From assembly GCA_963575745.1 (NCBI GenBank), contig CAUYUJ010000198.1, positions 1-64,000 of the forward strand: DNA of 64,000 nt, in the 5' to 3' direction. This DNA comes from Prorocentrum cordatum (Eukaryota). The notes under the pieces are model-generated. The model saw nothing but the letters and a program-made list of their open reading frames with translations. It did not search any database and had not been told where the DNA came from. A program made the position numbers and the translations under genes. Shown one piece after another: positions 20,012-55,500 of the stretch; the stretch's first letter is position 1, and each line of letters starts with the position of its first letter.

Positions 20012-20102
20012 CTCGTGTCTCAGGGTCCGCAGCAGCTCCAGCGCGGACTCGTCGTCGATCTCGTTGTGGGAGAGGTGCAGCTCGTGGACGGGGCCAGCGC
20101 GC
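20012..20102 (-). CDS. LRR gene exon F: (K)RAGPVHELHLSHNEIDDESALELLRTLRHE
   Basis: RI-type LRR, ag|G acceptor, phase 2 matching exon E, probable GAG|gc donor. Confidence 0.85.
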
Positions 20103-20144
20103 CTCCCCCGCGAAGGGGGGGGGTCCTAGATCTCCGGCGATACG

Positions 20145-20400
20145 GTCACGAACGTTTGCGTAAACGCTGTGCCTTGCAGGCGGATGGCGTTCGCTCCGCT
20201 CGGCGGGGCGGGGCGCTCGGGACAGCTCGGGACGTTGACGCTTGGGAATGGGAACGTGGACAGCGTGTCGCGCCGATGCGCAGGGGGCCAGAACCCGCGG
20301 AGCGACACGCTAAGCAAAACTCCTGACTGGATGTTCTGCTCAACCCTGCAGTTTTCCTCAATTTCGGCCTCTGGGGCGCGTTGTCGGGCCCCAGGGCTCC
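20145..20400 (+). repeat. Structured dispersed repeat, with copies at ~38560-38900 and ~46880-47060
   Basis: Shared acgc(t/c)(a/g)tgcc(t/c)tgca(a/g)gcgga..gcgt(g)tcgct(c/g)cgctc core and downstream gacagcgtgtcgc / gcgacacgctaagca blocks. Confidence 0.75.
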
Positions 20401-23400
20401 AAGAAATGGATCTGACACGAAAAACTGGCCCTGGGGACGCGGTCGAGGAGCGCCAAGGCTGGCGCGCCTCGCCTTTGGCGGCTGCCGCGTCGTCGGGGAG
20501 CACTCGAGGAGCTTCGGGGGTCGAAGTTCCAGTGCCGAAGTCTTCGGTCGTCGGGCACCCTTTCTGAGCCTCTGGGGGGTTCTCATCACCAAGGCCGGAT
20601 CCGCCTCGAAATTCTGGGCAGAGCACTCCCCGGTGGGAGGAGGGGCATCGTAAGGCACAGCGTTCCTGCCTGCTTCAGTCCTGCCTCCCCCGCTTGCTTT
20701 GCTCAGCTGCCATCTCTACCTGATCCCCCTCCGTCGCCGTTTTGCCCCGTCGCGCCGACAAGGCCCTTAACCATTTTATGGTCACGCCTCTCAGCGAGGG
20801 GCCCCCAGGGATTGCTGGCTTGCGAAACCCAACCCTCTGGCCGCGGCGCGCGCAGGAAAAGCGAGAGAACATACTTGGTATTTCTTTATGTTGGCGTGGT
20901 TCCGCCAGTGATAGTGGAGCCTACCCGGGCAGGCCGATCCACGGCATTGACACCGTCGAGCAGCATCACGTGTCTGACTCCGTCGGGCAATAGCAGCATC
21001 ACGTGTTTGACAGCGTCGGGCAACAAATCAGACTACGAGAAATTTCAAATCAATGGCGTTCAGAGGCCGTGATCGAAACGAGGCTGTATTCCCAAGGGGA
21101 GGTGGCAAGGGCTACAGCTTCATCCCAGCCTGGGATGGAATACCTCAGGGCTGGAGACGCTATCGCGACGATGTTGAGATCAGAGCCGGCGGCACCCACC
21201 TGAACATAAACTACTGCTGGAAGGCGCCGCGAAACGCGATGGCATAATAACCCTGCGCGACGAAGTGCAAGCAGTGCCTGCGAAGGCGCAGCAACAAACT
21301 GGCGGCGACGGTAACATCATAGAAGACGAAGTTCCATCCGACTACATGAGATGTATCAATAATGCGCTGGCGGCATTGGAGCAGGCGTTCAGACCACAAC
21401 ATGCCATATGTCGAGGACAATGCATGCGTTCTTCGAGTCGATACGCTACAACCGCAGGCATGAATTACGCATCTTTGACCTCTTACCGAGGTTCGAGGAA
21501 GGTATCTGGCGTTTGGAAGATGATGGAGTTCAGTTTGCGGACGATTGCGATGTTCTCGGAAGGGGGCTCCTCAGGCTGCGGTGCTTATCTGGCGGGCGCC
21601 ATGACATAGAGATGGCAGCCCTCCACGACGAAAGGCGCCTTTTCACGGGCATCAGAAAAGAAGTGAGCAGGCTCTTCCAAGACTCGTACGCCATGGGGGT
21701 TCGCAGGACACAGGCGCCGCGCGGGAGCCTGTTCCAGCCTCGTGGAGGGCCGAGGTGAAGCGGTGGTGGCACATCAGGCGGACGAGGGGTCCTCGTCACG
21801 GAAAACGGGCCAAGTGGAGGGCCCGAGGGTGAGAGACCACTAGACTACGAGGACGACGCACTCACCCGCACGAGAACGACATCAGTGAGGTCGAGGTCAG
21901 CGACGTCTAGGGCATTCGTCCGCAAGGAGCCCGAGGCCCCCGCGACCGAGCTCGAGGACGTCGACGTCGACCTGTCCGCGGGCCAGACGGCGGCCCCTAA
22001 AGAGGCCGCGCTCCAAGCCCCCAAACTACCAGGGGCGCTCGGGATCATCAGGGGCGCCCGTGGCAAAATGTTCGGCGGCCGTGACGGCAAGCAGTGCGAA
22101 GGTCGAGCCCGCGGAGGAAGCAGGGGCACACGAGGCGTTGGCGCCCCTGGTCCATGACCGCCCCGAGCTAGCATACGAACTGAAGGCCAGGAGGACGAAT
22201 AATACTCAGAAGAAGAAACGGAAGAGTAGGCATAATACTAAGAAGAACAATACGAAGCAGAAGACGAATAACAATACCAATAATACTAACACTGATGAAA
22301 ACAAGTCCACCCGCAAGGCGTGCGGCCAGATGGGTCGCTGGGCTGGTGATCCCGAGTGTCGCGGCTCCAGCGAGCAGCGAGCCATGGTCACGGCGGAAGG
22401 TGGTTGGAACTTTGAAAGTCACGCGGTCTCGACGGATCTAGACAAGAGCTCACGGATGACCACCACGCAGGTGGCAAAGGACTGGCTCCTTCGGCTGGCT
22501 ACAATGGACCAAGGGCGCCCACATCATCACGAGGAAGTGTTCAAGAACCAAATGATCCGCATGGTCAAGGACCACCTCAGGGCAGTGGTCGACACCGCCT
22601 GTGTGCGAGAAGTTCAGATTCCGAGACGGTGGTGCGCTCATGTCTTACGGGGCCTTCAGGTTTTCAGCGGTGGTCGCGGGCATGCCAGTACTTGTGCGAG
22701 CTTGTGCAGTCACGAGTGACAACCTCAGACTGCTGGTCGGCCGTAACTTCCTCAAGTCCGTCGGCGCCAACATCGACGTGGGGCGCAAGAGGCCGACGGC
22801 TGGCTCGGGCCCCCAGCAGCTGTTCAATTAGGAGAACCACCAATTGGGACTTCCCTTTGGGGATCGAGTCGTCGCCTGCGAGTGCCGCGCGAGCGCAGCC
22901 CCGACGCTGCGCGCTCGCGCTGTGAGGAAGGCCAAAGCACTAACGAATGCACTTCCTCATTCCTCAGTCGCCATTCATCGCTATGGCCCAGAACGCGGCC
23001 CGCGAGGCGCAGCCAGTCTCTGCAGCCCCCGCAGGGCCAGCTCTCGCGACCCCGCCCAGGAACCTCCCCGCCGGAGAATCGGCACCGTTTTGGAGGGTCG
23101 CCGGGCGGCGGCCGCCGCGGCGCCCCTGCCGAGCAGCCGCGAGGCGACGAGCTCCTGGACCACGAAGTGGCCGATCTCGAGGGGCATGGGCGCAGAGAGG
23201 AGTGGGCAGAGGGCGAGGATGGCACATCGGTTTTTCGCCTCTTCCAGCCTGGCGGCCACTGGGGCCAGTTCCCCGCCAGCGCGGCAGTCGATTCGTCGAG
23301 GCCTCCGCGGGTGGCGCCGAGCAGCTGGCCAGGCAATCTTACCGCTGGGGCCGAGCCATCTACGTCGCCTGGACTGACGCTGGCTCCTGCAATTTCTCCC

Positions 23401-23559
23401 CATGCACGCCGATTGACATCGCCGCCAATAAGGGCGGCGCGGAACTTCTGGACTGCGTGATCGGCGTGGATGGCGCCGCAGACGCGTTCGCGAGAGGCGC
23501 GCGGATCATGGGCTTCGCAAACCCATGCGCGGGAAAAACGCATCCATCGCGCGTCGGTA

Positions 23560-23775
23560 TCACCCCGCAGCAATCGCGCATTCTGGGCGCTTTCGTCGCG
23601 CGCGACGCAATCGCTAATCGCGCGCTGCTGCCGCGCCAATCGCGCGCGGATCGCGCGCCAATGGCGCGCTCGTGGCGCACTGATGGCGCGCCCAGCGGAC
23701 ACTAATCGCCCATTGATTGCAAAATAATCGCGCGCACATCGCGCACTGGTCGCGCACTATTCGCGCGCCAATCGC
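23560..23775. repeat. Degenerate ~11-bp cgcgccaatcg-type minisatellite
   Basis: Repeated aatcgcgcgc / cgcgcact motifs. Confidence 0.55.
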
Positions 23776-24904
23776 TGGCCGGGCGGGGGCGGGGGCCCGC
23801 GCTGAGAGCGCGCTCAGTGATGAGGTAATTTCTGATGATTCTACATTACCTTCATGCGCCAAATTCACGGGCTTTTCAAATCAATCCCTGTTGTCCAACA
23901 ATCAGTGCTAGGCGGGGTTCTCCGCCGAAATGAATGCTGGGCCTCCTTTTCGAAGCGTCAACTCAATGCGTCGCTCAGCGGGGCCCTCTGGGGCGGCGCT
24001 GGGGTGCTCGGAACGGCCGACCCTGGGGGGCCCGCAGGTGGGCCGGCTCGGGCCCTCCCAACGCCCCCTCCTCAGGCAGGGGCGGACCAGCCTAGGCCCC
24101 TGCGAAACTCGCAGGGGAGGGGGCCCCTTCGTCTCGGGGCCGCGCGGGGCCTCGAGGAGTCCAGCAGGGGTGGTCCGCAAGAGCATCGGGGCGCCTCTGG
24201 GCAGCATTTGAAAGGCCTCTTGGGCGCCTGGAGCTCGGGGGGCCTTCTAGAAGAGGCCGCGGGCAGGCGTCTGCGCCGCTCGTTTACCGCGCCCCGCGCT
24301 GCTCCGCGCCGCGAGGCGTTCGTCTCCATTGGCCCTGCCCTGCTCTGCTCGGATGCCATGCCTTCTGCTGCAGCAAGCTTCCCCCTGCTCGGCTTATCCT
24401 GCTCCACGTCGCTCAACTATCTGTACTTTCCCTGCTCCACTGCGCTCGACTAAACCCTGCCCTGTATTCTTCTTCCCTTATCCTACTTTACTTCTGACCA
24501 GCTCTGTTCGGCTCTACTGCGCTCTTCTCTGCCCTGCTCTGCCCGCGCGTTACCCGGGGCGCTGCGGGGGCGGCTGGGGAAGCGCGTTGCAATGGCGGGG
24601 GGGGGGACCGCCGCAATGTCAGAGGAGGCCGCTGAAATTACAAGGGATGCCTTTGCAATAGTCTGGGGCAGCGCGCAGGAGTGGGGGTCTCAGCGGACCA
24701 CTTCGACCTTCTGGCGCCGCGCCCTGGGCCCTGGCCCCTGCGGGCTGGAACCGGGCGGCCTCGCGCGTAGGAGTGGCCGCGATGGCGGTTGGCAGCGGCG
24801 GTCGCAGCGAACGCGCGAGTGCCACTGGTAGTCTTATTCGACGTAGCACCGCTGATAAGATGACTTGCCCAACTAATAATAGCCGCCGCCGTCGCGATAG
24901 TATT

Positions 24905-26518
<1,614 letters not shown>

Positions 26519-29500
26519 TTCCATACGGGCACCAGTTATAGCAAGAAGACGGTGAAGAAGCAACGTCGGAGGTCGATCAGTTCATGCAGCACCAGCGTTT
26601 CTCTCATGAGAAGCAGCGGCAAGAGCGGCAATGGTAGTACGACGGCAACCAATAGTGCGAGAACAGCCTATATGCAATGCTGAAATTAGCGTGAAGACGA
26701 GGGGAGTGCAACCAAAGTCGCGACTGCAGAATCGAAATAGGACAGATGCGAATACAACGAATCATCGTGCGCGCATCAACTGGCAAAGAAGTATGGTTCC
26801 TTGCCGTCGTGTATAACGTGTAGAACTGGCATCTGTCAGGAGATATGGGCACTCGGCGCGGAGCGCATGAAACAATTTCAGGCGCTCGCCATCGCGCTCA
26901 GCACAACACTCTCTAGAACAACATGTGAATGCAAGATGGCCTTTGCGTTTGGTGCACGGGGCGCGCGAAGAGGGCCCATCTGCGCGCAGCTCAGCGATGC
27001 ACTAGCTTCGACGGCTTCGCAGGCCTCGAGAAGGGCGCGCTCCCGGGCACCGGGGGCGCTACTGGAGCCGCGTTGTGAGAATGAGGGCCGACTCGACAAA
27101 AAGTGGGCGCGCGCCGACGGCCGGCCCCGCGCCGCTGATTCGGGTGGCCCGACGTCGACCCGCGCCGGCCGAGCGAGGCAGGGGTGACCGGGGGAATCCC
27201 GGGGAAGAGCTGGGCTGCCAGCCGCGAGGCCCCTGGTCAGGGCTCCAGAACTCCACGAAGCGCGAAGCTGAACTGTCGCTGGGCCCTGCTGGCGCATGAA
27301 AAAATTGCTCGCCGGGCTGCCGAAGAATGCTACTCTGCGCGGCGCCTCGGTCGCCTTCGAGCGGCCCCGGCGCTGTCGCGGCTGGGGCGAGCCAGAAGTC
27401 GTGGAGTTGCGACGCCCCTTTCCCTGCGAGCGCGGCTTCGACGGCTGTGCCGCGGCCTCTTGGGCGAGAGAACGGGCGGGCATGCCGAACAGCTGTGGAA
27501 GTTACTCGCCAACCACCAGCCACTCCAGAAGCTCCTGGAAAGAGGCGCCCAGGCGCCCGTCGCCGCATCGGCGGCCGCGAATTCAAAGGGCGCGCGTCCA
27601 AGATGAAGGGCCTCTGCGCGAGGGCTGTGCGCTGCGCAGCCGCGAGGGTCTTCGCGCGCAACACCGCGGGCGCCAACGACGCCTTAGTGAGTCGCGCCTG
27701 ATAGCGGCGACGTGGAGGGCGAGGGCGCCGCGAAGGGCACTGGGGCATCCTCGCCGAGCTCGAATCTTGGCTGCGCGTCGTGCTGATCAGGATCGCGGGC
27801 ATCTGGCTGGAGGATCGAAGTGCCACGTCGCTGCAGCGCTGGCCCATAACTGCCATTGGGCTCAATGCGCCGCCGGCAACGCCATCGACCTCGCTGTGTT
27901 GGAGATGGAGAGAGTTCGGCGACTGCCTGGCCATCGACGCCTTCGAGCGGGCAGACGCGCAGGGGGTCGGCGAGAGGGGGTCGGCGAGACATTAATTCTT
28001 GAAGCACGTTGACTTGGCGACTAAGTACCAGGTCGCTGTGCTGGTCGCCTCGCGCAGGCCAACTGCGATCGGGCAGGCCACGTATCAGGTCGACCAGAGC
28101 CTACAACCCGACGCAAACCGCGGTCTGCGAGAGACGCGGCCGAACGTGGAAGGCCCGCGCTCGAGCTCTCGCGTCGGCTTTCTCTACGTCTCCTTCAACA
28201 GGCTGGAGCAGCCGAAGTGGCTCGCAACTGCCATCAACTGCGCGGTGAATACAGCGGTGGGCCAGTCAGGCTACTCGCCATCCCACCGGGTCCTGGGCCA
28301 GGGTGCCGGCCTGCCCTGCGAGCTCCCAGGCCAGCGTGGTAACCTGAGGATGCGCCGGCGGATGTGGGGCGGAAGCGAATCCAAATTCGACTACTTAGCG
28401 CCGCCTAAAGGCAACGGCCGCCATGGGGGCTAATCGCAAAATCAGCGCGGCCTCTCCGCTGGGAGCCGGGCGGCGACTGCGGGCCCAGCGGCGTCTGCGA
28501 ACCGGGGTGGGCGATCGGGTGTTTTGCCAGAGAGGCCCCGTCGAGGCTAACGCGGAGAAGCGCGGGGCTCGCGATGGTGTGGCCGAGCGGTTGCAATATG
28601 TCCCGGGGCGAAGTATTTCTGGCTGGCGCCGCGTGACCTGGCGACCGCGGCTTCGGCCCGACATTCGCGCGCAGCTGGCGCTTCGGAGGTGGTTGACTGG
28701 AAGGGTATCTTCGAGCGGGCGCTGGGCGCTGGGCATCGAATCGAGGGCCGCTCCTCCTCCCGCCCTGAGCCTGGAGCCCGAGATGATGGCGGCGATGTGG
28801 GAGTTGCTCCTGAGGCCCCTCGACTTGCCGAACCGCCGCCCGCGGGCCATGGCCGTGGCAGCTCGCCCTTGGGCGTGGAGGTTTGCGACCGCGCAGTGCT
28901 GCCGCCGGAACCGGCATCCCCCGGGGCAGAGCCACCGTGCGAGGGCGCGCCCTTCCGCGGACAACCCGCGCGAAGAAGGATGCGCGTCGACTGGGGCGCC
29001 GAGGCCACCGAGTTGAAGCCGGCGCCCCGCCCGCCGCTCGCGATCGAGGGCTCCGCCCGCACGTTGGAACCAAAGGGGCCGGCGGGCCAGCCGCCGCCGC
29101 GGCCGCCGTCTGCGGGGCAGCCGCGGGTGATATTCGAACAGGATGAGACGCCCCAGCTACGGGCGGGCGATTGCGGCGACCTTCCCGCGCCAGACCGCCG
29201 CGGCCCAGGCCTGGTGGAGGTGCCGCACCACTTCGAGGGCGAAGGCGCGCCCCGGCTGCCCGGGCCCAATGCCGATCGCGAAGCAGGAGGGGCAGGCCAT
29301 ACCACGAAAAAAACCCTGGCGCGGAGGATGCCGAGATCCCCGTCGAGGATGCGAGACCATCGGCGATCGGCCCCGCGCGCGGCCAGATCGACGAGAGAGA
29401 GACGCCGCTCCACGATGGCGCGGGTGCCCACCTCCTCGGCGCCAGGAGGGCCGGGGCCCGACAGCTGCAGCGTCGTCGAGTGGAGCGCCTGCATCGAGGC

Positions 29501-31624
29501 CGGCGCCGTCTCGGCGAGCGACCCGCGGAGGAGCGCCCCAGGGCGAAACTCTGCGACCTCATCGACGACGCACCGTTCAACGCGCAACAGGGATTGGCCC
29601 CAAGTCGTCGACCGAGATCTCCATTCTTGCAGGCTGGCCCTGCTCGAGGTCGAGCGGGGCCGCTGGCCGCCTGGGGCCCGAGGCGCGCCCTCGCGCTGCA
29701 GGTCAAGGGGATGCGCGACTGCTTTCTCGCCAGGGCGGCCCCCTCTGGCCCGGGCGCCGACTTGGGCGACGATCGACGAAACCAGGGCGAAGATGACGTC
29801 GCGCGGGGGTAAATAGAGCATCTCTGAAATCCGGCAGCTCTGGAAGATGTCTCGGGCGACGCGGCCTTCGCAGCGCTTTCTGGAACGCCCTCAAGGCGTT
29901 CCGGAACGCTCTGGAACGGATCTATCTTCTTTCTAACCCCGCCCGAACTGCTGGCCTCAAGATGGGGGAGTGGGAGAAGTGGATCGCCTTCGGAGCGAGC
30001 TGCTCGACGTCGTCCGGACCACGGGCTTCAGAAGCACCTGAGGGATGGTGCCAAGGTCGTCGGCACCCGCTGGGTGGTCACTCTAAAGCAAACGAAGCGA
30101 TCGAAATATCAATCCAAACTCGCGTTGCAAGGCTGCCAGGAGCGATCGGCCTACCTCAGGAGCGATGCCCCCGCGGGGTCCGTGGACGCCCTGATGGTCT
30201 TCATGTCTCAAGACGGATGGATGGGCAGGTAATTCGACGCGAAGTCGGCACACCTCCAGGCTGAAAGGATAGACCGCGTGCTGCTGATCCGCATGTCCAG
30301 AAGGTATCCCGCAGCTCCTGGCCAAGTGTCCTGCGCGCAAGGCTCGATGTTCGTCGCGGAGGGCGCTGGCCGGGCATGGGAATATGCACCCTCAACCCTT
30401 TTCCTAGAACACGGGCGTTTACGAGTCCAGGCTCGAGCGCGGAGTGAAAAAGTACCGCCTCCACGGGGGGCTGAAGATGGTCGTGTACAGCCGCGAGGAC
30501 CACCTGCTAGTTGGTGGCCAAGAGGGTCAGAAGCCCCCGAGGTGGACGCGCTCTTGCTGAAGATAGCTAAGTTCTGCGCCCCAAGCGGCGAGATAGCGAG
30601 TTCGAGCATTGCGGCGTGAACGTCAGCATCGGCGAGAAAGGACTCCGAATTGTCCGAACCAAGGCTGTGAGGGCCGTAGAGTACGTGCCGCTGAGCAACG
30701 AGCGCAATAATAAGCCAGACGAGTCAGCGAACGAGGAGCTCAGCGCTTCCCGCAGACACATCGGCAAGCTACAGTGCCTCGCGCATCGATCGCCTTTGGA
30801 CAGAAAAAGCTTGGCCCCGCGGACCTCAGTCCTCAAGGAGTGCGACCTCGACGACGTCTCGGCCGTCACGGGGAAGCTGCAGAAGGAAGGCTTCCACTCA
30901 ATATCTGTGGTGATCGATGTTGCGAATCAGATTTTTCGCAACTACAACGCAGATGGAACTCAAGCGGGGAGACAAGAGGCAATCCCCAGCTACTACTGCG
31001 ACCCCGGCTCAGGTATGATCAGGAACCGTCGACGGCGAGGAGCGCCATAACGACCGCAAGCACTTCGACTTGCTGAAGCCACGCATCCATATCTGAGATC
31101 CATATGTCCATGTCCTGCCTCGAACTTCGAGGCCGCTTGCATATCTTCCTTTACCTCACCCGTGGAGGCGACGCTTCCGCGTGTAGCTTCGTCGGACTGG
31201 CACGGCTTTCCGGCAGGGAGGACGAGCTGAGAGAGCCATCGCAAGGCATAGCGTTCCTACCTGCCCTAGTCCCACCTCCCCCGGTTGCTCTGCTCAGCTA
31301 CTGTCACTACCTGATATCCTTCCGCCGCCTTTTGGCCCCGTCGCGCCGACAGGGCCCTTAACCATTTTACGGCCCCGCCTCTCAGCGAGAGGCCCCCAGA
31401 GATGCCGGGCTTGCGAAGCCCAAGCCTCTGCCCGCGGCGCGTGCAGGGAAAACGAACTATCATTTTCGATATGTATTTTTCCGCTGGCGCAGCCCCGCCA
31501 CTCAGAACAGGTCCAGGGGCTGGTTGTTGACCCCCGCCCACGGACCTCCTCGCTTTGTTCACAAAAACAACACGGCGGGCCTCTCCCTAGGCGATTGGTC
31601 TCATTCCATCGATTATATAAATAT

Positions 31625-33414: not shown

Positions 33415-33420
33415 GAAGAT

Positions 33421-33452
<32 letters not shown>

Positions 33453-33959: not shown

Positions 33960-33994
<35 letters not shown>

Positions 33995-34132
33995 GTGCTG
34001 GTGATGATGCTATGGTGCTGATGACGGCTAAGATGACGATGAAACTGAGTATGCTAATCATGGTGATGATGATGCTGATGATGACGATGACGATGACGAT
34101 GATGATGCTGATGATGATAATGATGGTGGTGA

Positions 34133-34223
<91 letters not shown>

Positions 34224-34242
34224 GGTGGTGGGGGTGATGATT
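33415..34242. repeat. (GAT/GGT/GAC)n compound microsatellite
   Basis: Direct reading. Confidence 0.95.
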
Positions 34243-34265
34243 ATGAAGGCCCCTCACCCTCTCGC

Positions 34266-43268: not shown

Positions 43269-43359
43269 CTCGTTGCTCAGGCCGTTGCCGCTGAAGTCGA
43301 CCTCCCCAGAGCACCGCCGCAGCGGCCCGAGGCCATGCTCGGCCTTGAAGGAGGCCAGC
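43269..43359 (-). CDS. LRR gene exon C: (R)LASFKAEHGLGPLRRCSGEVDFSGNGLSNE
   Basis: LRR strand VDFSGNGL, ccag|G acceptor (phase 2), GAG|gc donor. Confidence 0.83.
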
Positions 43360-43376
43360 CTGGCCGCGCTCGGCGG

Positions 43377-43377
<1 letters not shown>

Positions 43378-43441
<64 letters not shown>

Positions 43442-43475
43442 CGTCGTCCGTCGTCCGTCGTCCGTCGTCCGTCGT

Positions 43476-43522
<47 letters not shown>

Positions 43523-43625
43523 CTCGTCGTCGTTGAAGGAGAAGGAGGAGGAGGAGGAGGAGGAGGAGGAGGAGGAGGAGGAGGAGGAGGAGGAGGAGGA
43601 GGAGGAGGAGGAGAGGAGAGGAGAT
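43378..43625. repeat. (GTC)n followed by (GGA)n microsatellites
   Basis: Direct reading. Confidence 0.95.
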
Positions 43626-43639
43626 GAGAGCGAAGCAGG

Positions 43640-45355: not shown

Positions 45356-45937
45356 TTCTTGGGAGGAGGAGGAGGAGGAGGAGGAGGAGGAGGAGGAGGA
45401 GGAGGAGGAGGAGGGGGAGGAGGAGGAGAAAGAGGATGATGATGACTAGTGTATTCCCTCTCCTTCGCCTCCTCCTCTAGTGGGATGTCGCCCTCTCCTC
45501 GCCTCCTTCTCTGGGACTTCCTGTTTGCTTGGGAGGTCGCCGGAAACGTGGTCGGCCAAAGAACAAGTGGAACTGGAACGTGTTGTTATGGCGTGCCAGG
45601 CAGCCGGCGACGAGGACACATGGCCTCAACTATAATAAGGGGGCGCCCGCATTCAACGGCATGCAGCGCGCAAGTTCTGCTCACAGGTCGCAGTGCAGGT
45701 CTTTACTTCCCGGCCTGCGTACCACCGCCGACGCACCTCTGACGTGCATGGCGCTCTCTCTCTCTCTCTCTCTCCCTCTCTCTCTTTCTCGCCACCTCCT
45801 CCTCCTCCTCCTCCTCCTCCTCCTGTTCCTCCTCTCCCCCCGCCCTCCCTCGCACCATCGCCCTTGCCCGAGGCCCCTGCCCCTGCCTCTGCTACTGCTG
45901 CACCCCCCCCCGCCCGGCTCGGGGGGGAGGGAGGGGC

Positions 45938-45975
45938 CTGCTCTTGAGCCAGCTGCAGTAGTGGCTCATGCCATC
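45938..45975 (-). CDS. LRR gene exon B (38 nt): DGMSHYCSWLKS(R)
   Basis: gtcag|GAT acceptor, AG|gc donor in phase 2, completing AG+G = Arg with exon C. Confidence 0.72.
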
Positions 45976-47809
45976 CTGACGGGCGGCGGGCGCCGCGGGG
46001 AAGGGGGGGTGGTGCAGAGCAAGAGGAGGAGGAGGCGGACGAGGAGGAGGAGGAAAACAGGAAACGAGGAGCACGATAGGAGCCAACCAGCCTCGAGCTT
46101 ACCCCCTATCCATAAGATTGGCAAGCCAAGAGGCGATGACAACATGTAGGATGTGCCCTCGGAAAGCGGAGGGAATCCTTAAGACTGGCGTCGAGATACG
46201 GAGATGCCAGTCATAGGGATAGGGACGTGCCTCTGGCTGGTAATCAGCAGGAGGCGGAGGAAGAGGAGAAAACGATGAGGAACAACAGGAGAAACGGAGA
46301 TGCGAGAAGATGGCAATCATAGGGATAAGGGCATGCTTCAAACTGTGCTTCTTCAGTCGGACGAATGGAAAATAGAGAGCATTGTTTCAATCCCGGAAAT
46401 CCCTACTCTTTCCGCAAGACCAACTTTCCATTCCGATTCGTTCCTTGATGGTTCTGTGGCCTGACGAGGGCTCCCCCAAGCCGAACGCAAGCAAACACCT
46501 CTCTCGCCGTGACTTTTTTTTATGACGCGAGCATGTCTGGGGATACGAGCACCCTCATCTCTGTTTGCCAGAATTCTGGCCGCGACCGACGAGATTGGTC
46601 GCTACCGATGTTGCTTCGAAATCCGGGATCGGCCGCGACCGAATTGGCGAAACATCGGTCGCGACCGGTCTGGGAGTTGGTCGCGGCCGACTTGGAGTGC
46701 CGATCGGTCGCTACCGATGGTGACCGAACAAAACCTGCACGGTCGAGTTCGATGGGAGAGGACACCCGAGGGAACACAAGTCCGAGGGCCACATGGGAAT
46801 GTAGAAGGCACGGGCCGCTAACGCACAGGATGCGAGGGGAGCTTTGATTTTGGCAGGGTTGACCTGCTACCGTCGAGAGCTTTCGCCTAGGTGGCGTGTC
46901 GCGGCGACGGCCCCAGCGACACGCTATGCCTTGCAAGCGGATTGCGTGTCGCTGCGCTCCGCGGGGCGGGAAGCTGACGCTGAGAGGCCAGGAAGTGGAC
47001 AGCGTGTCGCGGCGAGACTTGGTGGGCCAGACCCAGCGGGGCGAGACGATGAGCCAAAATTGCCGACCGTCGTCAAACTCGACTGTTCGAGTTGGGGGTC
47101 GACTACAACATTGATTTAGCCAAAGGTGCATGTCCCGCCGGACCCATGACAACACGATGGACTGAATGTGTATGCGACAAGAAAGCCAATCCTGGGGTGA
47201 ATTAGCTCTGCAGTCGATCCCTTACTCGGACTGTCTCCAATGATCTGGGCGGGATTGGCGGCGCGCACAAGGGGGTAGTGGGAGGGGGAAAGGCTTCTTA
47301 GAAACACCCTGCTTCTTAGAAAGCGCAGGCGCTACGTCTATAGATAAGGCCCGCGCCTCCCCCTACCCCCTTTCGTCGCGTGGCCGACAAACTCGAACTG
47401 CACGGCCGCACCTAGGACAGAAGGACATCCTTCAAGAACATGAGACCCCCCACTGGCTAAACCGAAAGACGCTCAAAGGTACCCCCCCCAGGGTGCACAA
47501 GAACACCCAACACACACGAAATCATCAGGGCGTCCTCCCCAAATCGACCTCGATCTGATACCTCATTCCGACCGCACCCCCTTTGCGCGTTGCCGACAAA
47601 CTCGGACTGTATTCAAGGACCTGGACGGGAGGCGGCAGAGGGCAGAGCAGCAGCAGGAACCAAGGGGCAAGCAGAAGAACGGGCGGCCTCTCGGGCGGCC
47701 GCGAGGCGCGTCGCGGAGCCCACGTCCACCCCCGCGCGCGCATCGCGCGGGTGGTCGGCGCAAGCGCGCGAGGAGAGTAAAAATGTGGAGCAGCAAGGAA
47801 GGCAAGTTC

Positions 47810-49290
47810 CTTTTTTTCGGATGACGTGAAGCGGGTCAAGCGCGTACTAGAGCAAGTGTTACATTTGGCGCGGTAAGTCGCCACCTTCAGCCACACAACC
47901 ACAAAGGAGAAACCACAAATCGTACCCTGCATACCATGAAGACCAACAGTCGAGTCAGGTGCCCAAGCAAATCCGTCATGCCTCGGTGGCTTCCCCGGCT
48001 TTACTACGAAAGCCCCGAAACACAACGGACTGTTTTAAGAAGTAAACAGTTCCGGCGCAAATATATACAAAGGCAGAGTGGCGGGTGGCATAGAATTGAA
48101 CGGAGTACGGCCCTCAAGTGGGCACTGCTGCTCCATCCACAGTGGACGTAACCAGCACCCACTTGGCATGCGCAAGTGTCGCCGCATCAGCCAGTGCACT
48201 CACGTAGTTCGTGGGAGCAGCGAACCTCGGACTTGCATGCTCTACCACGCTCTTCGTCTCTATCATGTTTGCCCGCGAAGTTAGGCGATGTGCTTCTCTG
48301 GTGCGCTGTCCCTGGATGCCCTTGGGCATGGGGACCGCACTCCAAGAACACATAAGTATCTCAAGATGGCGCCACTCCGAGAGCAAACGCCAACAGCGAA
48401 CGCAAGCGTGTCCACCCACAGCGTTTGCAAATGATTCAACAATTTGAACCGCTCCTCTCCTTGACGGTAAGATCACGATGTTGTGGGCATGGTGCGGTTT
48501 TATCGTGTTTCTCCTCGCCCAGCTAGATCGTGCTGTGGTCGTAGCTGGGCTTACCGTCCGTGATGTTCAGGATGAGGTCTCTGTTAATACTCGCATGCGT
48601 TATGGGGTCGGCTCTCATGCCTCTAATGTCGCACCACGGTATGTCGTCGATCTGCTTGGTGCAAAATTGATCTGAAAAGCTACTCGAGATGTCTGGTCAT
48701 GCTGCTTCCAAATGGGGGTCAAACTTCCATGGCCAGGGCCGGGAAGACGGGTGTTCCGTCGACTATCAAGAACCTTCTGGTTGAACGGCAGGAGGTGTGC
48801 TTTCATGCCGTCAGCTGCGCCGCTGGCTGCGAGCAGCTCTAAGCCAAACGATGATCGGCACACCAGCTTATGCGATCGGCTCACGGCGTCGAGCGACTGG
48901 CATACCTGTTTGCCAATACTGCGGCACACGCCCTGACGCGTGTATGCGGCTCCTTTCATGCCGCGCCCGGTCTCCCATCAGCCTTCCTTTTGCCGTTGTA
49001 GGCGTCGACATGCGTACTCATCTCTCGCCCAGGGCGAGTTCTCGTCTGAGGGACAGGAACCATGAACAGGAGACGCCGTTGGGATCGCCGACTGCTCGCC
49101 GCCGCCAGACATCACTGCACGAGAAACTGATACGGGGCCCCATTCCCATAGTGAAGGCGCGAACAAAAAACTGCCAAGCTCAAGAGCTTTGCCCACCGCG
49201 GAGTAGCAATATCCGTTTTCGCCAATGCGGGCTCACTCCGCCAAAACAATGATTTTGAACCAAAATGGCTTGATCCAAAATTGCTACGGA
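47810..49290 (-). pseudogene. Heavily decayed retrocopy downstream of a tandem SL relic
   Basis: Unique, lower-GC sequence with no long ORF. Possible oligo(A) remnant at ~47811-47817. The product cannot be recognised and the 3' boundary is uncertain. Confidence 0.45.
49254..49290 (-). other. Tandem spliced-leader relic (full 22-mer + 15-mer)
   Basis: Minus strand TCCGTAGCAATTTTGGATCAAG CCATTTTGGTTCAAA. Confidence 0.88.
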
Positions 49291-50214
49291 AGGCGGCGAG
49301 GAAAAGGAGGAGGAGGATCACCTCGGTCGGCAGTCCTGTCTCGCCGCGCACTTCGGCCGCGGGGGCCGCGGGGGCCCAGAGGGGCAACGACGGACCGGCG
49401 GCCGCGCAACGCTGCTTCAGGCCAGCCCTCCCGTCCAATACCGCAGCCCTGCCCAGCCAACTTCGGGGCCGTGGGTTGCCGGCTGATGTCCTGGAGCTGC
49501 ACGGAGCGCGGCGTATTGATATCAATTGGGCTCAGCCGTTTGGGGGTTCTCGTAACCAGTCCACATGTGGACGACGAAAGACACGGGTTTTGCGCGTGAC
49601 GACATACCGACCTTACGCCGCGACTTACGCGGGCCGCCAGCGCGGCACGCTGCGCTGGAAACGAGGGCGCTTGCGAAGGACCTTGCGCGGGTAGCTGACG
49701 CGCCGATGTCGTCGCAGACGACCCCATTGTTTTGCATGGCTCACGTTGCTCGAACACGCACTAACCCGTGTCAGCGCACACCCATTCCTGCCAGGACCGC
49801 GTCGCGAGCCCAGGCCAGCCATGAAGCGGCGCCCACACCCGGATCAGCGCTGAGGGGGGCTGACCCCCGCTAGCGCTGACCCCAGTCACGCGGGTTCTGG
49901 GTGCGCCCCCGCCGCGCGAGCTCCTCCTCTTCCTCCTCCTCCTCCTCCTCACCTCCTCTTCGCCTGTCGTCACGGCATCCTCCTCGCTGCTCCTCTTGTT
50001 GCTCGTCCCCACCCACTCTGTGTCACCTCCGCCTCCTCCTCCTCCTCGTCGTCCTCCTCCTCCTCCTCCTTCTCCTCCTCAGACCACCCGGCCAAACTGT
50101 CAGTGCAAAAAGGAGGAGGAGGAGAAAAAGGACCTGGGCTCCTACGACGAGGCTGAGCCTCGGCGATCGCTGGACCACTCGGCCAAACTGTCAGTGCACT
50201 GGGCTCCTACGACG

Positions 50215-53200
50215 ACCTTGTTAGCTAACGGGGTGGTGGTGGCTGATCCTCAGGCTCTACTAGACGGGCAGGCTCGACAGTACTCTAGCTTGTGGTTGGC
50301 AAAGCCTGAACCCCGACACCCTCAGGAAACGTTTCAACCTCTGCCTCCCCTACCTCGGCTTTCTCCTGAAGAGCTTCGGGCTTGCAGTCGTGCAGTCGTA
50401 GGTTCCCAGCAGGCACGGCTACCTGGATCGACGGGTTCCATATGCGTCACTTCGCCTCGCTGTCGGATGCCTCGCTCGACCTGCCGTCCACGATTTACGC
50501 CGCTATGCACTCTAGCAGTCTCATACCTGTGCAAGCTGATGTCACGGTAATGTTTCTTGTCGGCCATCGGCCTCTTCTCCTCTATTTATCGTCTTTGGGG
50601 AAAGGGGAGGAGGTCGTACCCTCCGAGATGGGAAGATGCTAACAAGCGTCCTTATGTTGCTGCTGGGAAGTTCTCCTCGTCTTCCGGTGTGGTGTGGCGA
50701 CAGGCCGTGCGAGGGGAGGTCGCGGTGCAGGAGGGGAAGGTTTCGGCCATTCTACTTTGGGATCTTTTCAAGTGCTTCGAAACGATTAGCCTCGACCTCC
50801 TCCTCCACAGGTGTGTTTAGTATGGCTTTGATCTGACGGTTGCTCGATTGGTGGTAGGCATGTACAGCAATGCCCGTTTCATAACGATGGGCCAGATTGT
50901 CAAAGGCCCTTTCTATGTTCTGGATGGCATTGTGAAGGCTGCCCGTTCGCGGCGACGATGGTTCGGATTTTTTATCATCGGCCCGCTCGAATCGACGTGT
51001 ATCCCGCGAGCCGTCTCGCTCGACGTATATATCGACGACTATGGGTTAACGGCAGTAGGCACATACTCCGAAGTCATCTTTGACCTGTCGGAGGCGGCCA
51101 CCTTTGCATGCTGCAATGGTTGACGACTTGGGTGGCTGTATTTCTCACGAGAAAGCCAACCTGGTGTCCTCTCACCGTCATGCAGCACTTGCTCTCCGCA
51201 AGAAGCCGGGAGCATTGTCTGGCAAGCGAATCAATTCTTCTGAAGCCAACCTTGGGATCGACTATACCTCTGGACGGCCCCGTCGGGCCCCTAGGCGCTC
51301 CACAGTTTTTCAGGTTCGGGTGCTCACGCTGAAGCACAAGACCAACACGGCTGCAAACTATACGGCAGGCTTTAGGTAGGCACTCCAGGAAGCTGTTCAT
51401 CACGGGCCCTCTGCCAGGGTACTATTATGGGTGTGAAGTCCATGGGATCTAGGATAGTGAATGGGGGCTTGCTCGCCGTGCTTATGGTCGCTGTATCAGG
51501 CCCAAGGCTGGATCCCGCTCGCTCACCTCAGCCGTGGTGCTCGACAAGGACCCCACTTTCCATGGGCCCAGAACCCCCCATCCTGAGGTACTCCCAGGAG
51601 TTCAGGGGCACCCACATGCGTACTTTTGATTTCACGCTGCCCTGGCAAGAACTCCACTCGTCTTGGGAAGCCGTTTTCTTAAATCCTGGGCCTGGCACCT
51701 GGAAGCGGGTCAGGGGCCCCATCCGTGCCATGAAGCTCAGCCTGCGCAGGATAGGGTGGACGATGCCGAGCTTCACGGTGATGCGAGAACAGTTCGAGAC
51801 AGACTTGCCGCTCAGGTTGGTAAGCCCAGCTCTTTTGAAGCGTCAATTGCGGCTTGCTGTTCTGCACCAGCATGAGCGTCGTGATGGTGCTAAGATCCCC
51901 TCCTCGCTCCAGCAGCCAATTGGAGTTTGCCATGACGAGGTTTACGCTATGCTGCAGTCTTCCATATTCACGGCCTACAGAAAGAAGGTTCAATCGGAGC
52001 GGCTATGGCGTGTTCCACTGTGTGGAGTAAAACTCGAGCTCGAACTGCTGGGTATCAGCTAGGCGATGTTCTTTGTGAGCTGTGTGTCAGTGCTGGCGAC
52101 ACCGTCCTCCATCGTCCATGGCACTGCCCATCATGCCATGATGTACGAAATGACATCTTTGGTAGAAATACTTGTCTGGTCCCACCCCCCGACCTCACCG
52201 ACGAACGCGATCCTGAGGAATGTCTCCGGTATGCCAGTGGGTTATATGTGCATCCAGGCGGCTAGATCCCTCGCCCTGCTCTTGCAATTGATGGCCCAGG
52301 TTCTGGATTTCATGCCTCTTGGGCTGGGGACCCCGCCAACACCGACACCATCCTCAGCGGTAGGCTCTATGTTGGTGGCTCCTGTTTTAGCAGTGGTTCC
52401 CCAGAGCTCTCCAGGGCGGGGTGGTCGGTGGTCAGCGTCTCAGAATCAGGCAGGGTGCAGTGTGTTATGTCTGCCCCCTCCTCGCGCACTTCCCCCACCC
52501 CCCTCAGGCTGCTGCATTTGCGGCCTATTGTATGGCGTCTCAGTGTGGTGACACTAGCAATCACATTTTCAGCGACTATCTGAAAGTGGTCAACGCCGCT
52601 CTCGACCCCATCCCCTCTCGCCTGTCTGTTCGCCGCCCCTATGCTGGTTTCATGCTCCAGGCCCTGGGGCCCATAGCCAATTCTGTCAGTAAGGTCAAGG
52701 GCCATGTGCCAGAGAGCCCCGACCTGCCTCCAGAGGCTCGGGCCCACAAGCTTGGTAATGCTAAAACTGATCAGGCTGCCCGCCTTGCCGCCCAGAGACA
52801 CCCGTCTCCAGCGATCGCCGAGGCTGAGCGTGCGGCCCGTGCGACGCGGCTTTCCCGCGCTGTGTGCAAGCTGTCAGCTCGTGTCATGTCGCTCTGGCCC
52901 AAGTTGGACCTTTCCCCAAGGCCCCTGGACCCCCCCCCCTGCTCCCAAACCTCCTCCTCTGCCCATCCCACGACTGGCACTGGGAAGGTCGGTTTTGGAT
53001 GTGTGCGTTTTGTGTTCGGTCTGCCCGTGGCTCCCCCAAGCCCCCTCCTGGACGCTGCAGCGGCGCTTCCTCTATTAAATGTTTAACTGGCCAAAGTCTG
53101 ATCGACCACGGGTACCGATCGATCTTCTTTGATGTAAATGACGGCGCTGGCATCCTTGTCTCCTGCACCCGTTGCGGCTACTACACAAGTGGTGGCCAAG

Positions 53201-53350
53201 TCAGGAACCTTCGCAAGATGTGTGTCGGACCGCCCGACCCTGTTGCTAGAGGCGACCATGGTAGACACTACGCATGGTCACAAATAGTGAAGGGGGGGCA
53301 CCCCAACAATGGCGCCCCTTTGCAATCTGGGCCGCTGGTGGATGACTCCG
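50215..53350 (+). mobile_element. 5'-truncated, decayed non-LTR retrotransposon with RT, Cys/His finger and RNase H
   Basis: RT motifs: IDGFHMRHF, IGLFSSIYRLW, LLWDLFKCFETI, LDVYIDDY (51028-51039). Finger: CELC..GDTVLHRPWHC. RNase H-like: LYVGGS..RAGWSVV, IFSDYLKVV, KVKGH..GNAKTDQAA. C-terminal CxxC pairs. Many frameshifts. Confidence 0.85.
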
Positions 53351-55446
53351 CCTATTCTGGGACGGCCCTTTTTGTTTTGCTATTCCTTCGGGTGGTTGCG
53401 GTGGCCCCGCCCTCCTCCTGGCACTGGAAGGCGGTGCTGGGCCCTTGTGGCTCCTGCAGCTGTTTCATGCACAATGCTGTCTCATCCAGGTGGCCTGCAC
53501 TCTTCGGCGGTTGATGTTGAACACCTTTCTCCTCCTCCCCTTCCTCCATTCGGAGGGCCCCTTCCCCCTCATTCCCCCTGCCCCCATTCTTCCCTTTCCC
53601 CTTCTCGTACTCCTGGTCGCCCCAATGTTCCAAACCACGAGATTGTGGTGGTGCCCGCGCTCGTGCTCGCTGTCCTCCTCCTTTCTCACCCTCTCTGCCT
53701 CCATCCTCCTCCACCCCCTCCTCCTCCATCCCTTTTCTCCTCCGCCTCCTCCTCGTTCTTCTATTCCCTTTCCTCCATCCCTCGTCCTCCTCACCCTCCT
53801 CTTCTCCCATCCTCCTCCATCCTCCGCCTTCCCTCCTCCCCGTATGGACGCAATGGGCACACACGACAAGAACTCTTTCCGTAAAGAACCCTGGAATGCG
53901 TTTCGCGTCGATAGGTGAGCATCTTTCAGTACCTGAAAGCTCCTGTGCACTTCTTTTCCCTCCCAAGCTCCCCGTCCTCCCTCCCCTCCTCCTCCATCCC
54001 CCCCTTCTCCATCCCTTGTCCTTGTGTTGTATATAGATGTGTGTATATATATATATATGTATATGTCTTCCTTCTCGTGTGGCCACCAGGCGTGTCGGTA
54101 GAGCGGGCCAGGCGTTTCGCCTGAGACTCCCTCACAAGGTCTGCTTCTGAATCTGAAAACTTCCAATGGCTGCAAGGGTGGAGGTCGGGTCGTTTTCAAA
54201 ATGGAACTCTCGCCTCCGCGTCGCGATCATGCGTCCCTAAAGCTCGCGACACTTGTAAAGATGGAGGTTGTTCTCTTGGGCGGGGACCACGCACATACGT
54301 CTGAAAGTTTGCAATGACGGAGGGCGGGTCATCTCCAAATGGGATCTCTCGCCTCAACGCCGCGCAATTTAATTTGAAACGTTCGCAAAGGTTGCCTGGA
54401 CGGCGAACACATCTTTTGCAAAACGGTGCGGTCGCTTGCGATTTCCTCGAACCAGAAAACTAGAAGCTGGACCATGATGCTACAGCTGCAGGGATAGATG
54501 TCGGCTCATTTTCCACATGGGGCCCTCGCTCAATGAATCCTCGACGCCAGCGACCAGACTGCACACTTATGCAGCTGTTGCACTGATGGGGGGCGGTTCG
54601 TATTATATAACCACGGGGATATCGCTGGACACCGCGTCTGACTGTATGATTGAACTCGTCGCAAGCCGTACGATATGCTCGACATGGAGGGCCCCCCCTT
54701 TCACAGGGGACTCTCGCCGAATGGTAAGCCCATCGGGTGCTGCTTGTTTCGAGAGCACTTCCTGCAACGAGAAAGACGGCTGTAAGGACAAATGCGAAGG
54801 GAACTTACACGGGAGGGTGTACTGCAACATCGTTGATGCAACGTGGGTTTGCGTTGGTCCTCCATCCTCCTTTTCCTTCTTCCCCTTACTCTCCCTCCTC
54901 CTCCGTTTTTCGTTTCTTCTCCCCCTCCCCCCTCCCCCCTCCTCCACCCCCTTCGTCTACGAACAAGGAAGGGCGACACCACCACCGCCAGCGCGGGGAA
55001 CCGGGAAGGGTCCTCCTGGTGGTGTGCCCCTCCCCCCCCGTCCCGCTCGAGGCATCCCCCATCCCAGCTCGGGGAGGCATCGTGGTCCTCCTCGCTGGAG
55101 GTGGATCCTCTGGTGGTGGTGGTATCGCTTCTCCTTCCTCTGGTCCCTCCTTTTCCTTGGGGCGCCGCAACAGACTGTTGCCTGTGGGCGTTCGCCGGCA
55201 GGCCGGCGAACGCTCACACATGAACCATTTGACGTGGGCTCCGTCATAGCGACTCAGCCCGGGCCGAGGGCCGAGGGGTCGCCCACAAGGGTGCGACTTT
55301 GTCCCGGCGTCGGACTGGACTCTCACGGGGATATCCCTGTTCTCCTCTTCCGCCCCTCCCACGCTTCCGATCGCCGAGCCCGCCCCCCTGCCCCAGAAAG
55401 AGAGGCGCGCCGCCGGCGGCGCCCCTATAGGAAGGGGGGGGCGCTC

Positions 55447-55500
55447 CTCCGTCAGCGGGGGCTCCATGCTGGCCATGCTCAGGCGCAGAAGCCACTGGTC
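55447..55500 (-). CDS. LRR gene exon A: DQWLLRLSMASMEPPLTE
   Basis: gcgcag|GAC acceptor, GAG|ga donor in phase 0. Joined to exon B it gives LRLSMASMEPPLTEDGM, a degenerate LRR (LxLxx..LtdeG). Confidence 0.65.

What the first reader, a model, noticed from the sequence alone, without database searches (positions are those of the whole stretch)
20012..55500. Hidden LRR gene: 399 coding nt in six micro-exons across 35.5 kb, with no GT donor
Seen: joining 55447-55500, 45938-45975, 43269-43359, 40400-40438, 34266-34351 and 20012-20102 (minus strand) gives a stop-free 133 aa: DQWLLRLSMASMEPPLTEDGMSHYCSWLKSRLASFKAEHGLGPLRRCSGEVDFSGNGLSNEAVWALLETLAQFEVHAASLKLCRNMISQGGVLAICEFIRTNKRAGPVHELHLSHNEIDDESALELLRTLRHE. 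It has three consecutive RI-like LRRs and all phases match. Introns are 9471 nt (GA-AG) and 2578, 2830, 6048 and 14163 nt (all GC-AG). The ORF track does not show this gene. Most of the window is therefore intronic, and the start and stop were not found.
Basis: partly seen in the sequence, partly recalled or inferred. Interest (0 to 1): 0.75.

Follow-up and report, generated by a model that had tools for sequence, protein, structure and literature searches.

The report
Split LRR gene in dinoflagellate DNA
Six tiny coding pieces spread over 35 kb really are consecutive exons from the middle of a conserved dinoflagellate leucine-rich-repeat protein gene, and their unusual GC and GA intron starts are the normal, already published splicing style of these algae.

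Summary
The observation reproduces exactly. The six minus-strand segments join to 399 nt, a stop-free 133 aa. Donors are GA then GC x4, and every acceptor is AG followed by G.

The exons are real. Proteins were retrieved with the last segment alone, and all 56 of 56 also align colinearly with the joined peptide. The best, P0004, is 90% identical with no gaps, at residues 535-667 of 865. One uninterrupted contig, L001, matches the joined CDS over 387 nt at 89.9% with no gap across all five junctions. Between window and L001, dN/dS is 0.23. GC3 is 0.92. The window keeps 59 of 60 strongly conserved family columns.

The piece is the middle of a roughly 750-1200 aa protein found only in dinoflagellates among the named sources. 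No other exon of it lies in the window.

Donor use, AGG acceptors, long introns and about 60% GC match published Prorocentrum cordatum statistics. "No GT in five introns" has a chance of about 0.24. No RNA data could be laid on the locus.

The parts
55447..55500 (-). Exon a (54 nt). In the relative P0004 it corresponds to residues 535-552. Phase 0 at both ends. Preceded by an AG acceptor and followed by a GA donor.
   Evidence: Six of the 8 homologues run by tblastn hit all six segments; P0006 missed this one at E <= 5.
45976..55446 (-). Intron 1, 9471 nt, GA...AG, GC 58.5%.
   Evidence: The junction is gap-free against L001 and P0004.
45938..45975 (-). Exon b (38 nt), ending in phase 2.
   Evidence: L001 153-194 matches 45977-45936 at 92.9%. 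P0021 missed this segment at E <= 5.
43360..45937 (-). Intron 2, 2578 nt, GC...AG, GC 70%. It contains high-GC3 open frames on the same strand (43718-44554 and 44254-45240) that are related to a dispersed sequence seen in Prorocentrum cordatum.
43269..43359 (-). Exon c (91 nt). It covers the end of a long helix and the first LRR strand.
   Evidence: L001 190-287 matches 43362-43265 at 89.8%.
40439..43268 (-). Intron 3, 2830 nt, GC...AG.
40400..40438 (-). Exon d (39 nt, 13 codons), the helix of LRR 1.
   Evidence: L001 282-323 matches 40440-40399 at 90.5%.
34352..40399 (-). Intron 4, 6048 nt, GC...AG.
34266..34351 (-). Exon e (86 nt), LRR 2.
   Evidence: L001 319-411 matches 34355-34263 at 92.5%.
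20103..34265 (-). Intron 5, 14163 nt, GC...AG. It includes a 1.45 kb (GTA)n array and other simple repeats.
19998..20102 (-). Exon f, LRR 3. Homology to L001 and P0004 continues to at least 19998, where the next bases are a GC donor. An alternative GC donor lies at 19989|19988.
   Evidence: (LRR_6 E = 4.3e-4).

Best explanation
The six segments are six consecutive exons of a nuclear protein-coding gene in a dinoflagellate-type genome. The source is most likely Prorocentrum cordatum or a close relative.

The exons encode the N-terminal cap, a long helix and the first three repeats of a ribonuclease-inhibitor/NLR-class leucine-rich-repeat domain. That domain lies in the C-terminal third of a roughly 750-1200 aa protein. 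The protein is conserved across dinoflagellates and has no assigned function. Its other recognisable parts are an N-terminal coiled coil, an hnRNP-Q-type acidic domain and, in the closest relatives, a C-terminal RanBP2-type zinc finger.

The exons are joined by ordinary dinoflagellate cis-splicing, which uses G|GC and G|GA as well as G|GT donors, and AG|G acceptors.

Shown: the exon set, their order, the five junctions, purifying selection on the coding frame, and the LRR fold of a homologue.
Inferred: that this particular copy is transcribed and intact; that its remaining exons (about 530 aa upstream and about 200 aa downstream) lie outside the window; and that the LRR domain acts as a protein-binding surface, possibly in an RNA-protein complex.
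For: 1. Independent colinearity. Homologues were fetched with exon f only (37 plus 19 proteins). All 56 then aligned to the joined peptide in order, including the 102 residues not used to find them. P0004 is 90.2% identical over 133 of 133 residues, with E = 3.7e-84. For 34 of the 56, the alignment is gap-free and extends over all 133 positions. A separate search with exon c alone found 8 proteins at E <= 0.001, among them P0031, which exon f also found.

2. Nucleotide level. Positions 13-399 of the joined CDS match contig L001 113-499 at 89.9% with 0 gaps. L001 against the window hits only the six exons, in order, and each match ends within about 4 nt of the proposed boundary.

3. Selection.
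- dN/dS is 0.228 against L001 (pS 0.253, pN 0.067).
- The window keeps 59 of 60 columns that are at least 90% conserved, against 57 of 60 for P0004 and for L001.
- Its 7 lineage-specific changes all fall in variable columns. My arithmetic from that call: (73/133)^7 is about 0.015 if changes fell at random.
- GC3 is 0.917 and CDS GC 65.9%.

4. Splice signals. Five of 5 donors are GC or GA, and 6 of 6 acceptors are AGG. Table 2 of PMC10666404, read as passages, gives for P. cordatum: GC 51.4%, GA 23.8%, GT 24.7%, AGG acceptors 79.7%, mean intron 4709 bp, genome GC 59.7%, CDS GC 65.9%.

5. Fold. An AlphaFold2 model of homologue P0040 with a 40-sequence alignment has block-mean pLDDT of 79-98 (mostly above 90) over about residues 90-330. 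Its best Foldseek matches are NLRX1 3un9 (E = 1.9e-5), NOD2, the NLRP1 LRR and ribonuclease inhibitor. A profile search of PDB sequences hit designed and RI LRR proteins.

6. Taxa. Named sources are Gymnodinium smaydae, Karlodinium veneficum, Togula jolla, Amphidinium massartii, Biecheleria cincta, Polarella glacialis and an unnamed dinoflagellate. An ORF in intron 2 has a P. cordatum relative.
Against: - There is no RNA evidence for this locus itself.
- No other exon of the gene is in the 64 kb window. Nothing matches the conserved block just upstream within 55501-64000, or the conserved fourth LRR and Cys-rich block within 1-19997.
- Where the next exon would be expected, the same strand carries a different gene (PEP-mutase/isocitrate-lyase family, 14329-15795) and a LINE-like element (7348-11660). 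The copy could therefore be a fragment.
- No identical protein model appeared in the collection in the 116-2000 aa range.
- Pfam on single exons is weak. Only exon f matches LRR_6, at 20.6 bits, below the 23.4-bit cut-off. Exons c and e give nothing.
- L001 carries an in-frame stop inside the core, so it is not a perfect reference.
- I cannot tell whether L001 is mRNA-derived or an intronless DNA copy.
Confidence: 0.9

Rival explanations
1. The six exons are a truncated, partial duplicate of the gene, that is, a gene fragment or young pseudogene. They are real as former exons, but they no longer belong to a complete transcription unit. The gene ends before the PEP-mutase-family gene that lies 4 kb downstream on the same strand.
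For: No further exon of the family is detectable in 8.5 kb upstream or 20 kb downstream. A different, apparently intact same-strand gene lies at 14329-15795, and a LINE-like element at 7348-11660. No identical annotated protein was found. Dinoflagellate genomes are rich in duplicated genes (PMC10666404, passages read).
Against: The frame is open, and all 5 donors and 6 acceptors are intact. dN/dS is 0.23. Fifty-nine of 60 conserved columns are kept, and the 7 window-specific changes all avoid conserved columns. Introns here already reach 14 kb, so a flanking intron longer than 20 kb is not far-fetched.
Confidence: 0.2
2. The match is a chance concatenation of short open frames in GC-rich DNA that happen to resemble LRR repeats.
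For: GC-rich DNA has many long stop-free frames; the window holds 2011 stop-to-stop frames of at least 8 aa. Pfam support on single exons is weak.
Against: E = 3.7e-84 to P0004, and colinear matches to 56 of 56 proteins that were fetched with only one of the six pieces. A gap-free 387-nt match at 89.9% to L001. GC3 of 0.917.
Confidence: 0.01

Closest known systems
Protein-coding genes of Prorocentrum cordatum as described in Genome Biol 2023;24:265 (PMC10666404; passages and Table 2 read)
   Same: Genome GC is about 60% and CDS GC 65.9%, matching the window. Donors are mostly GC and GA. Acceptors are AG followed by G. Introns run to kilobases, with a published mean of 4.7 kb. An ORF in intron 2 has a P. 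cordatum relative.
   Different: Exons here are much shorter (38-105 nt) than the published mean of 240 nt. The five introns average about 7 kb. Only 1.1% of the 35.5 kb is coding. I could not show that the window is from that species, and no identical protein model was found.
Symbiodiniaceae gene structure (Sci Rep 2016;6:39734, PMC5177918; passages and table read)
   Same: The predominant donor dinucleotides are GC/GT/GA. Exons are short (means of about 100-110 nt in two of the three species), there are many exons per gene, and genes are arranged unidirectionally.
   Different: Mean introns there are about 0.5-0.9 kb, against 2.6-14 kb here.
Ribonuclease-inhibitor / NLR-class LRR domains (NLRX1 C-terminal fragment 3un9, NOD2 5irl, NLRP1 LRR 5y3s, RNase inhibitor 1a4y)
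   Same: A model of homologue P0040 shows alternating short strand and helix units of about 28-29 residues. These are its best Foldseek matches, with E from 1.9e-5 to 3e-4. The Pfam LRR_6 signature is present in 29 of 40 family members at E <= 0.1.
   Different: There are only about 4-5 repeats, flanked by family-specific caps (a beta-hairpin plus long helix before, and a Cys-rich segment after). Sequence identity to the solved chains is 14-24%. TM-scores are low (0.2-0.5) because the chains differ greatly in length. No NACHT or other NLR module is present.

Membership tests
Dinoflagellate spliceosomal introns with non-canonical donors | Donor dinucleotide is GC, GA or GT, usually preceded by G | tested here: met
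   The donors are GA, GC, GC, GC, GC. Four of the 5 are preceded by G and one by A (exon e ends CAA).
Dinoflagellate spliceosomal introns with non-canonical donors | Acceptor AG is followed by G (the AGG motif) | tested here: met
   Six of 6 exon starts are AG|G. The published figures are 79.7% in P. cordatum and 93-97% in the other free-living and symbiotic dinoflagellates of that table.
Dinoflagellate spliceosomal introns with non-canonical donors | The introns are actually removed from RNA at this locus | not testable with these tools
   No sequencing run was listed and no genome is held. Indirect support comes from the gap-free match to the uninterrupted contig L001 and to transcriptome-derived proteins.
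Unnamed dinoflagellate family (coiled coil, hnRNP-Q-like acidic domain, RI-type LRR) | Colinear, near gap-free match to the LRR core of family members | tested here: met
   Fifty-six of 56 align. P0004 is 90% identical over 133 of 133 residues. Fifty-nine of 60 columns that are at least 90% conserved are kept.
Unnamed dinoflagellate family (coiled coil, hnRNP-Q-like acidic domain, RI-type LRR) | The N-terminal conserved blocks and the C-terminal fourth LRR with its Cys-rich block are present in the same gene | tested here: not met
   They were not found anywhere in the 64 kb window by tblastn, HMM, motif or nucleotide searches. They may lie outside the window, so this limits the claim to 'a segment of such a gene'.
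Pfam LRR_6 (PF13516), RI-like leucine-rich repeat | Score at or above the gathering threshold of 23.4 bits | tested here: inconclusive
   Exon f alone scores 20.6 bits, E = 4.3e-4. Exons c and e give no hit. The joined peptide could not be submitted to the Pfam tool. Full-length relatives also score just below the cut-off, for example P0004 at 21.6 bits.
RI/NLR-class LRR fold | A curved solenoid of strand-helix units resembling ribonuclease inhibitor | tested here: met
   This was tested on homologue P0040 (65% identical in the core), not on the window's own protein. Block-mean pLDDT is 79-98, mostly above 90, over the domain, and the top Foldseek matches are NLRX1, NOD2, NLRP1 LRR and RI.

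The most novel reading that the evidence does not exclude
The copy is intact, so the gene is far larger than the window. Under this reading, the intron after exon f is longer than 20 kb. It hosts, on the same strand, an independent and apparently functional PEP-mutase/methylisocitrate-lyase-family gene plus a LINE-like retroelement. Intron 2 hosts a further ORF-bearing dispersed repeat. That would make this a same-strand nested-gene arrangement inside a host gene whose coding density is about 1%. It would raise the question of how cis-splicing of the host intron and spliced-leader trans-splicing of the nested gene are kept apart in a dinoflagellate.
Probability: 0.5. Interest if true: 0.4.

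Novelty: new member of a known kind. Interest (0 to 1): 0.25.

Why it matters
The result shows that a careful reading of raw sequence can recover a real gene that has about 1% coding density and non-GT donors. Standard ORF tracks and many gene finders miss or fragment such genes. In Polarella glacialis, the cluster of the full-length family transcript P0038 also holds six genome-derived models marked partial, of 100-359 aa.

Biologically, the finding adds one locus to a conserved, uncharacterised dinoflagellate protein family, and it is a clean example of published dinoflagellate splice rules. It does not change what is known about splicing. The only open point of wider interest is whether the host gene spans a same-strand nested gene.

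Tried and rejected
- **Whole genome:** none is held for this window, so the rest of the gene could not be sought.
- **Sequencing runs:** none was listed for window:34200-43400, kind rna.
- **Homology search with a 30-aa exon:** it was below the tool's 40-aa minimum. I used the 211-aa open frame around exon f with region 1-45 instead.
- **Other LRR exons in the window:** a self-tblastn with the joined peptide found none. The best non-self hit had E = 0.18.
- **Upstream and downstream exons:** all of these gave only low-complexity or chance hits.
  - tblastn with 8 homologues.
  - HMMs of the flanking conserved blocks against all 2011 stop-to-stop frames (top hits re-read).
  - Motif searches for the fourth-LRR and upstream blocks.
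  - blastn-short with L001.
- **GC3 scan:** it recovered five of the six exons (the 13-codon exon d is shorter than the scan window), the PEP-mutase gene and the LINE ORFs. It found no further exon of this family.
- **Introner-type terminal inverted repeats:** only intron 1 has one, a 9-nt exact inverted repeat near both ends. In GC-rich DNA I judge this compatible with chance.
- **PAM2 motif:** the conserved N-terminal motif of the family (consensus) reminded me of a PABP-binding PAM2 motif. This is recall only. No PAM2 family appeared among Pfam matches at E <= 0.1 in 40 members, so I make no claim.
- **Earlier findings of this scan:** nothing bears on this locus.
- **Pfam on 30 of the 61 stop-to-stop frames of at least 250 aa and on further frames:** the only hits above the curated cut-offs were PEP_mutase and ICL (both in the 14332-15861 frame) and RVT_1.
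Full report
**Observation**

The five introns are 9471, 2578, 2830, 6048 and 14163 nt. Their first two bases are GA, GC, GC, GC, GC. Every segment is preceded by AG and starts with G. The window has no N, is about 60% GC, and is full of simple and tandem repeats. This looks eukaryotic. No genome is held for it.

**Are these real exons?**

Only contiguous window DNA can be sent to the search tools. I therefore searched with the open frame around the last segment only (residues 1-45 of window:19490-20125:-). That returned 37 proteins of 403-1199 aa and 19 of 132-362 aa. Nearly all come from transcriptome or metagenome assemblies.

On the script machine, the joined peptide was compared with them.

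- All 37 and all 19 align colinearly, including the 102 residues that were not used to fetch them.
- P0004 (865 aa) matches residues 1-133 to its 535-667 at 90.2% identity, with E = 3.7e-84.
- Most of the others are 57-70% identical and 56-82%. Two distant ones are about 45% identical.
- For 34 of the 56, the alignment is gap-free and extends over all 133 positions.
- In the reverse direction, tblastn of 8 homologues against the window hit the six segments in order. Six of the 8 hit all six segments. P0006 missed exon a and P0021 missed exon b at E <= 5.
- A separate whole-library search with exon c alone (30 aa) gave 8 proteins at E <= 0.001, including P0031, which exon f had also found.

**Nucleotide-level evidence**

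A scan of metagenome contigs with P0004 gave four loci. L001 is 1164 nt, with one reading frame that runs to a terminal stop apart from a single internal stop. It matches positions 13-399 of the joined CDS at 89.9% identity with no gap, so it runs straight across all five junctions. When L001 is run against the window, it hits only the six exons, in order, and each match ends within a few bases of the proposed boundary.

**Evidence of selection**

- Between window and L001, pS is 0.253 and pN is 0.067, so dN/dS is 0.23.
- The joined frame has GC3 of 0.917 and GC of 65.9%, while the introns are 58-70% GC.
- Against the family, the window keeps 59 of 60 columns that are at least 90% conserved (P0004 57, L001 57).
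- Its 7 lineage-specific substitutions all lie in variable columns. If they fell at random, that would have a probability of about 0.015; this is my arithmetic.

So the frame has been under purifying selection, including on the window's own branch.

**A correction to the last exon**

P0004 also carries the corresponding extra residues. The exon therefore runs at least to 19998, where the next bases are again a GC donor. A second G|GC lies at 19989|19988, and after 19998 identity to L001 falls to about 60%. Both options leave the exon in phase 2. Only a transcript can choose between them.

**What the gene is**

The peptide is the middle of the protein. About 530 aa upstream and 200 aa downstream are missing.

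Family members share several features, seen in the 40-sequence alignment A1:

- conserved N-terminal blocks;
- a Tup_N-like coiled coil, in 19 of 40 at E <= 0.1;
- an hnRNP-Q acidic-domain match, in 26 of 40 (best 1.6e-6; only P0004, at 28.6 bits, was seen to clear the 26-bit cut-off);
- LRR_6, in 29 of 40;
- in P0004 only, a RanBP2-type zinc finger (1 of 40). L001 shows the same Cys pattern in its translation.

An AlphaFold2 model of homologue P0040 with that alignment is confident across the LRR region, with block-mean pLDDT of 79-98 over about residues 90-330. The model shows a beta-hairpin, a long helix, then strand-helix units. Exons a to f map onto the hairpin, the long helix and the first three units. 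Foldseek places it with NLRX1 (3un9, E = 1.9e-5), NOD2, the NLRP1 LRR and ribonuclease inhibitor. A sequence profile hits designed and RI LRR proteins in the PDB.

Named sources are all dinoflagellates: Gymnodinium smaydae, Karlodinium veneficum, Togula jolla, Amphidinium massartii, Biecheleria cincta, Polarella glacialis and one unnamed dinoflagellate. No source gives the family a functional name. My functional reading is that the LRR is a protein-binding surface in a possibly RNA-associated scaffold protein. That is inference from domain content only.

**Comparison with what is known**

Non-canonical donors are a published hallmark of dinoflagellate genes. PMC5177918 (passages and table) lists GC/GT/GA as the predominant donors in Symbiodinium, with short exons. 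PMC10666404 (passages and Table 2) gives these figures for Prorocentrum cordatum:

| Feature | Published value |
|---|---|
| GC donors | 51.4% |
| GA donors | 23.8% |
| GT donors | 24.7% |
| AGG acceptors | 79.7% |
| Mean intron length | 4709 bp |
| Genome GC | 59.7% |
| CDS GC | 65.9% |

The window fits these figures closely. With them, five introns without a GT donor have p = 0.753^5 = 0.24, so that aspect is not unusual.

An open frame in intron 2 has a 70%-identical 'unnamed protein product, partial [Prorocentrum cordatum]' (P0051) and an 87%-identical 153-aa ENA protein (P0050). This points to Prorocentrum or a near relative as the source, but it does not prove it.

**What remains open**

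No further exon of the gene is in the window. Downstream of exon f, the same strand carries three things:

- a 386-bp-period tandem array at 18109-19269;
- an apparently intact PEP-mutase/isocitrate-lyase-family gene at 14329-15795. Pfam PEP_mutase gives 1.4e-33. The NCBIfam methylisocitrate-lyase model matches at positions 3-225 of 285, with E = 3.8e-51, below its equivalog cut-off. GC3 is 0.93-0.97;
- a LINE-like element, with RVT_1 at 3.4e-23 in the frame 7351-8868 (listed as 7348-8868 with its stop) and further long frames at 8342-9655 and 10446-11660.

Either the next intron is longer than 20 kb and hosts these, or this copy is a fragment. I put the fragment reading at about 0.2.

No RNA run could be listed, so transcription of this copy is not shown. 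No identical protein model of 116-2000 aa was in the collection, which is compatible with the gene being unannotated or fragmented. In Polarella glacialis, the cluster of the full-length transcript P0038 also holds six genome-derived models marked partial, of 100-359 aa.

**Verdict**

This is an ordinary dinoflagellate gene segment, a new locus of a conserved but uncharacterised family with splice signals of a known kind. Interest is low to moderate.

Noticed in passing
window 14329-15795 (-): This is a long open frame of the PEP-mutase/isocitrate-lyase superfamily. Pfam PEP_mutase gives E = 1.4e-33, and NCBIfam methylisocitrate lyase matches at model positions 3-225 of 285 with E = 3.8e-51, below the equivalog cut-off. 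It lies on the same strand as the LRR gene, 4 kb downstream of exon f. GC3 is 0.93-0.97. The match stops about 60 model positions short, and the frame then runs through non-matching sequence before coding-like sequence resumes, which suggests a short in-frame intron.
   Followed up: partly
window 7348-11660 (-): A LINE-like retroelement. The frame 7351-8868 (7348-8868 with its stop) carries a reverse transcriptase (Pfam RVT_1, E = 3.4e-23). Two further long frames lie upstream of it, at 8342-9655 and 10446-11660, with high GC3 segments but no Pfam or NCBIfam match.
   Followed up: partly
window 43718-45240 (-), inside intron 2: A 70% GC stretch with several frames of GC3 0.94-1.0. The frame 43718-44554 is 87% identical to a 153-aa ENA protein (P0050) and 70% identical to a partial Prorocentrum cordatum model (P0051). 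P0051 follows two different window frames, so the copies differ by a frameshift. This may be a dispersed repeat, a retrocopy, or a small nested gene of unknown function.
   Followed up: partly
window 1-1149 and 17907-19353: Two large tandem arrays. One has a 79-bp unit (about 14 copies, 93-96% alike) at the window start. The other has a 386-bp unit (3 copies, 96% alike), itself built from 11/21/32-bp subrepeats, between exon f and the PEP-mutase gene.
   Followed up: no
window 25036-26488 and 33418-34209: Very long trinucleotide arrays inside intron 5: (GTA)n of 1.45 kb (484 copies, 88% matches) and (GAT)n of 0.8 kb. The second ends about 57 nt from the exon e donor.
   Followed up: no
window 19998-20020 (-) and L001:490-517: The sequence around the exon f donor is locally duplicated: the same 8-base string containing G|GC occurs twice, 14 nt apart. 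The closest relatives (P0004, L001) carry 7-8 extra residues here that other family members lack. This looks like a lineage-specific donor shift that lengthened the exon.
   Followed up: partly
L001:100-499: The contig L001 has one in-frame stop codon inside the otherwise conserved LRR core, at a column that is invariant Glu in the family. It could be an assembly or sequencing error, a pseudogene transcript, or RNA-level variation.
   Followed up: no
window 22730-22813 (+): A high-GC3 frame whose peptide reminded me of a retroviral-type aspartic protease motif. This is recall only. Pfam gave no such hit for the frames I scanned nearby (21889-22716 and 22747-23457, + strand).
   Followed up: partly
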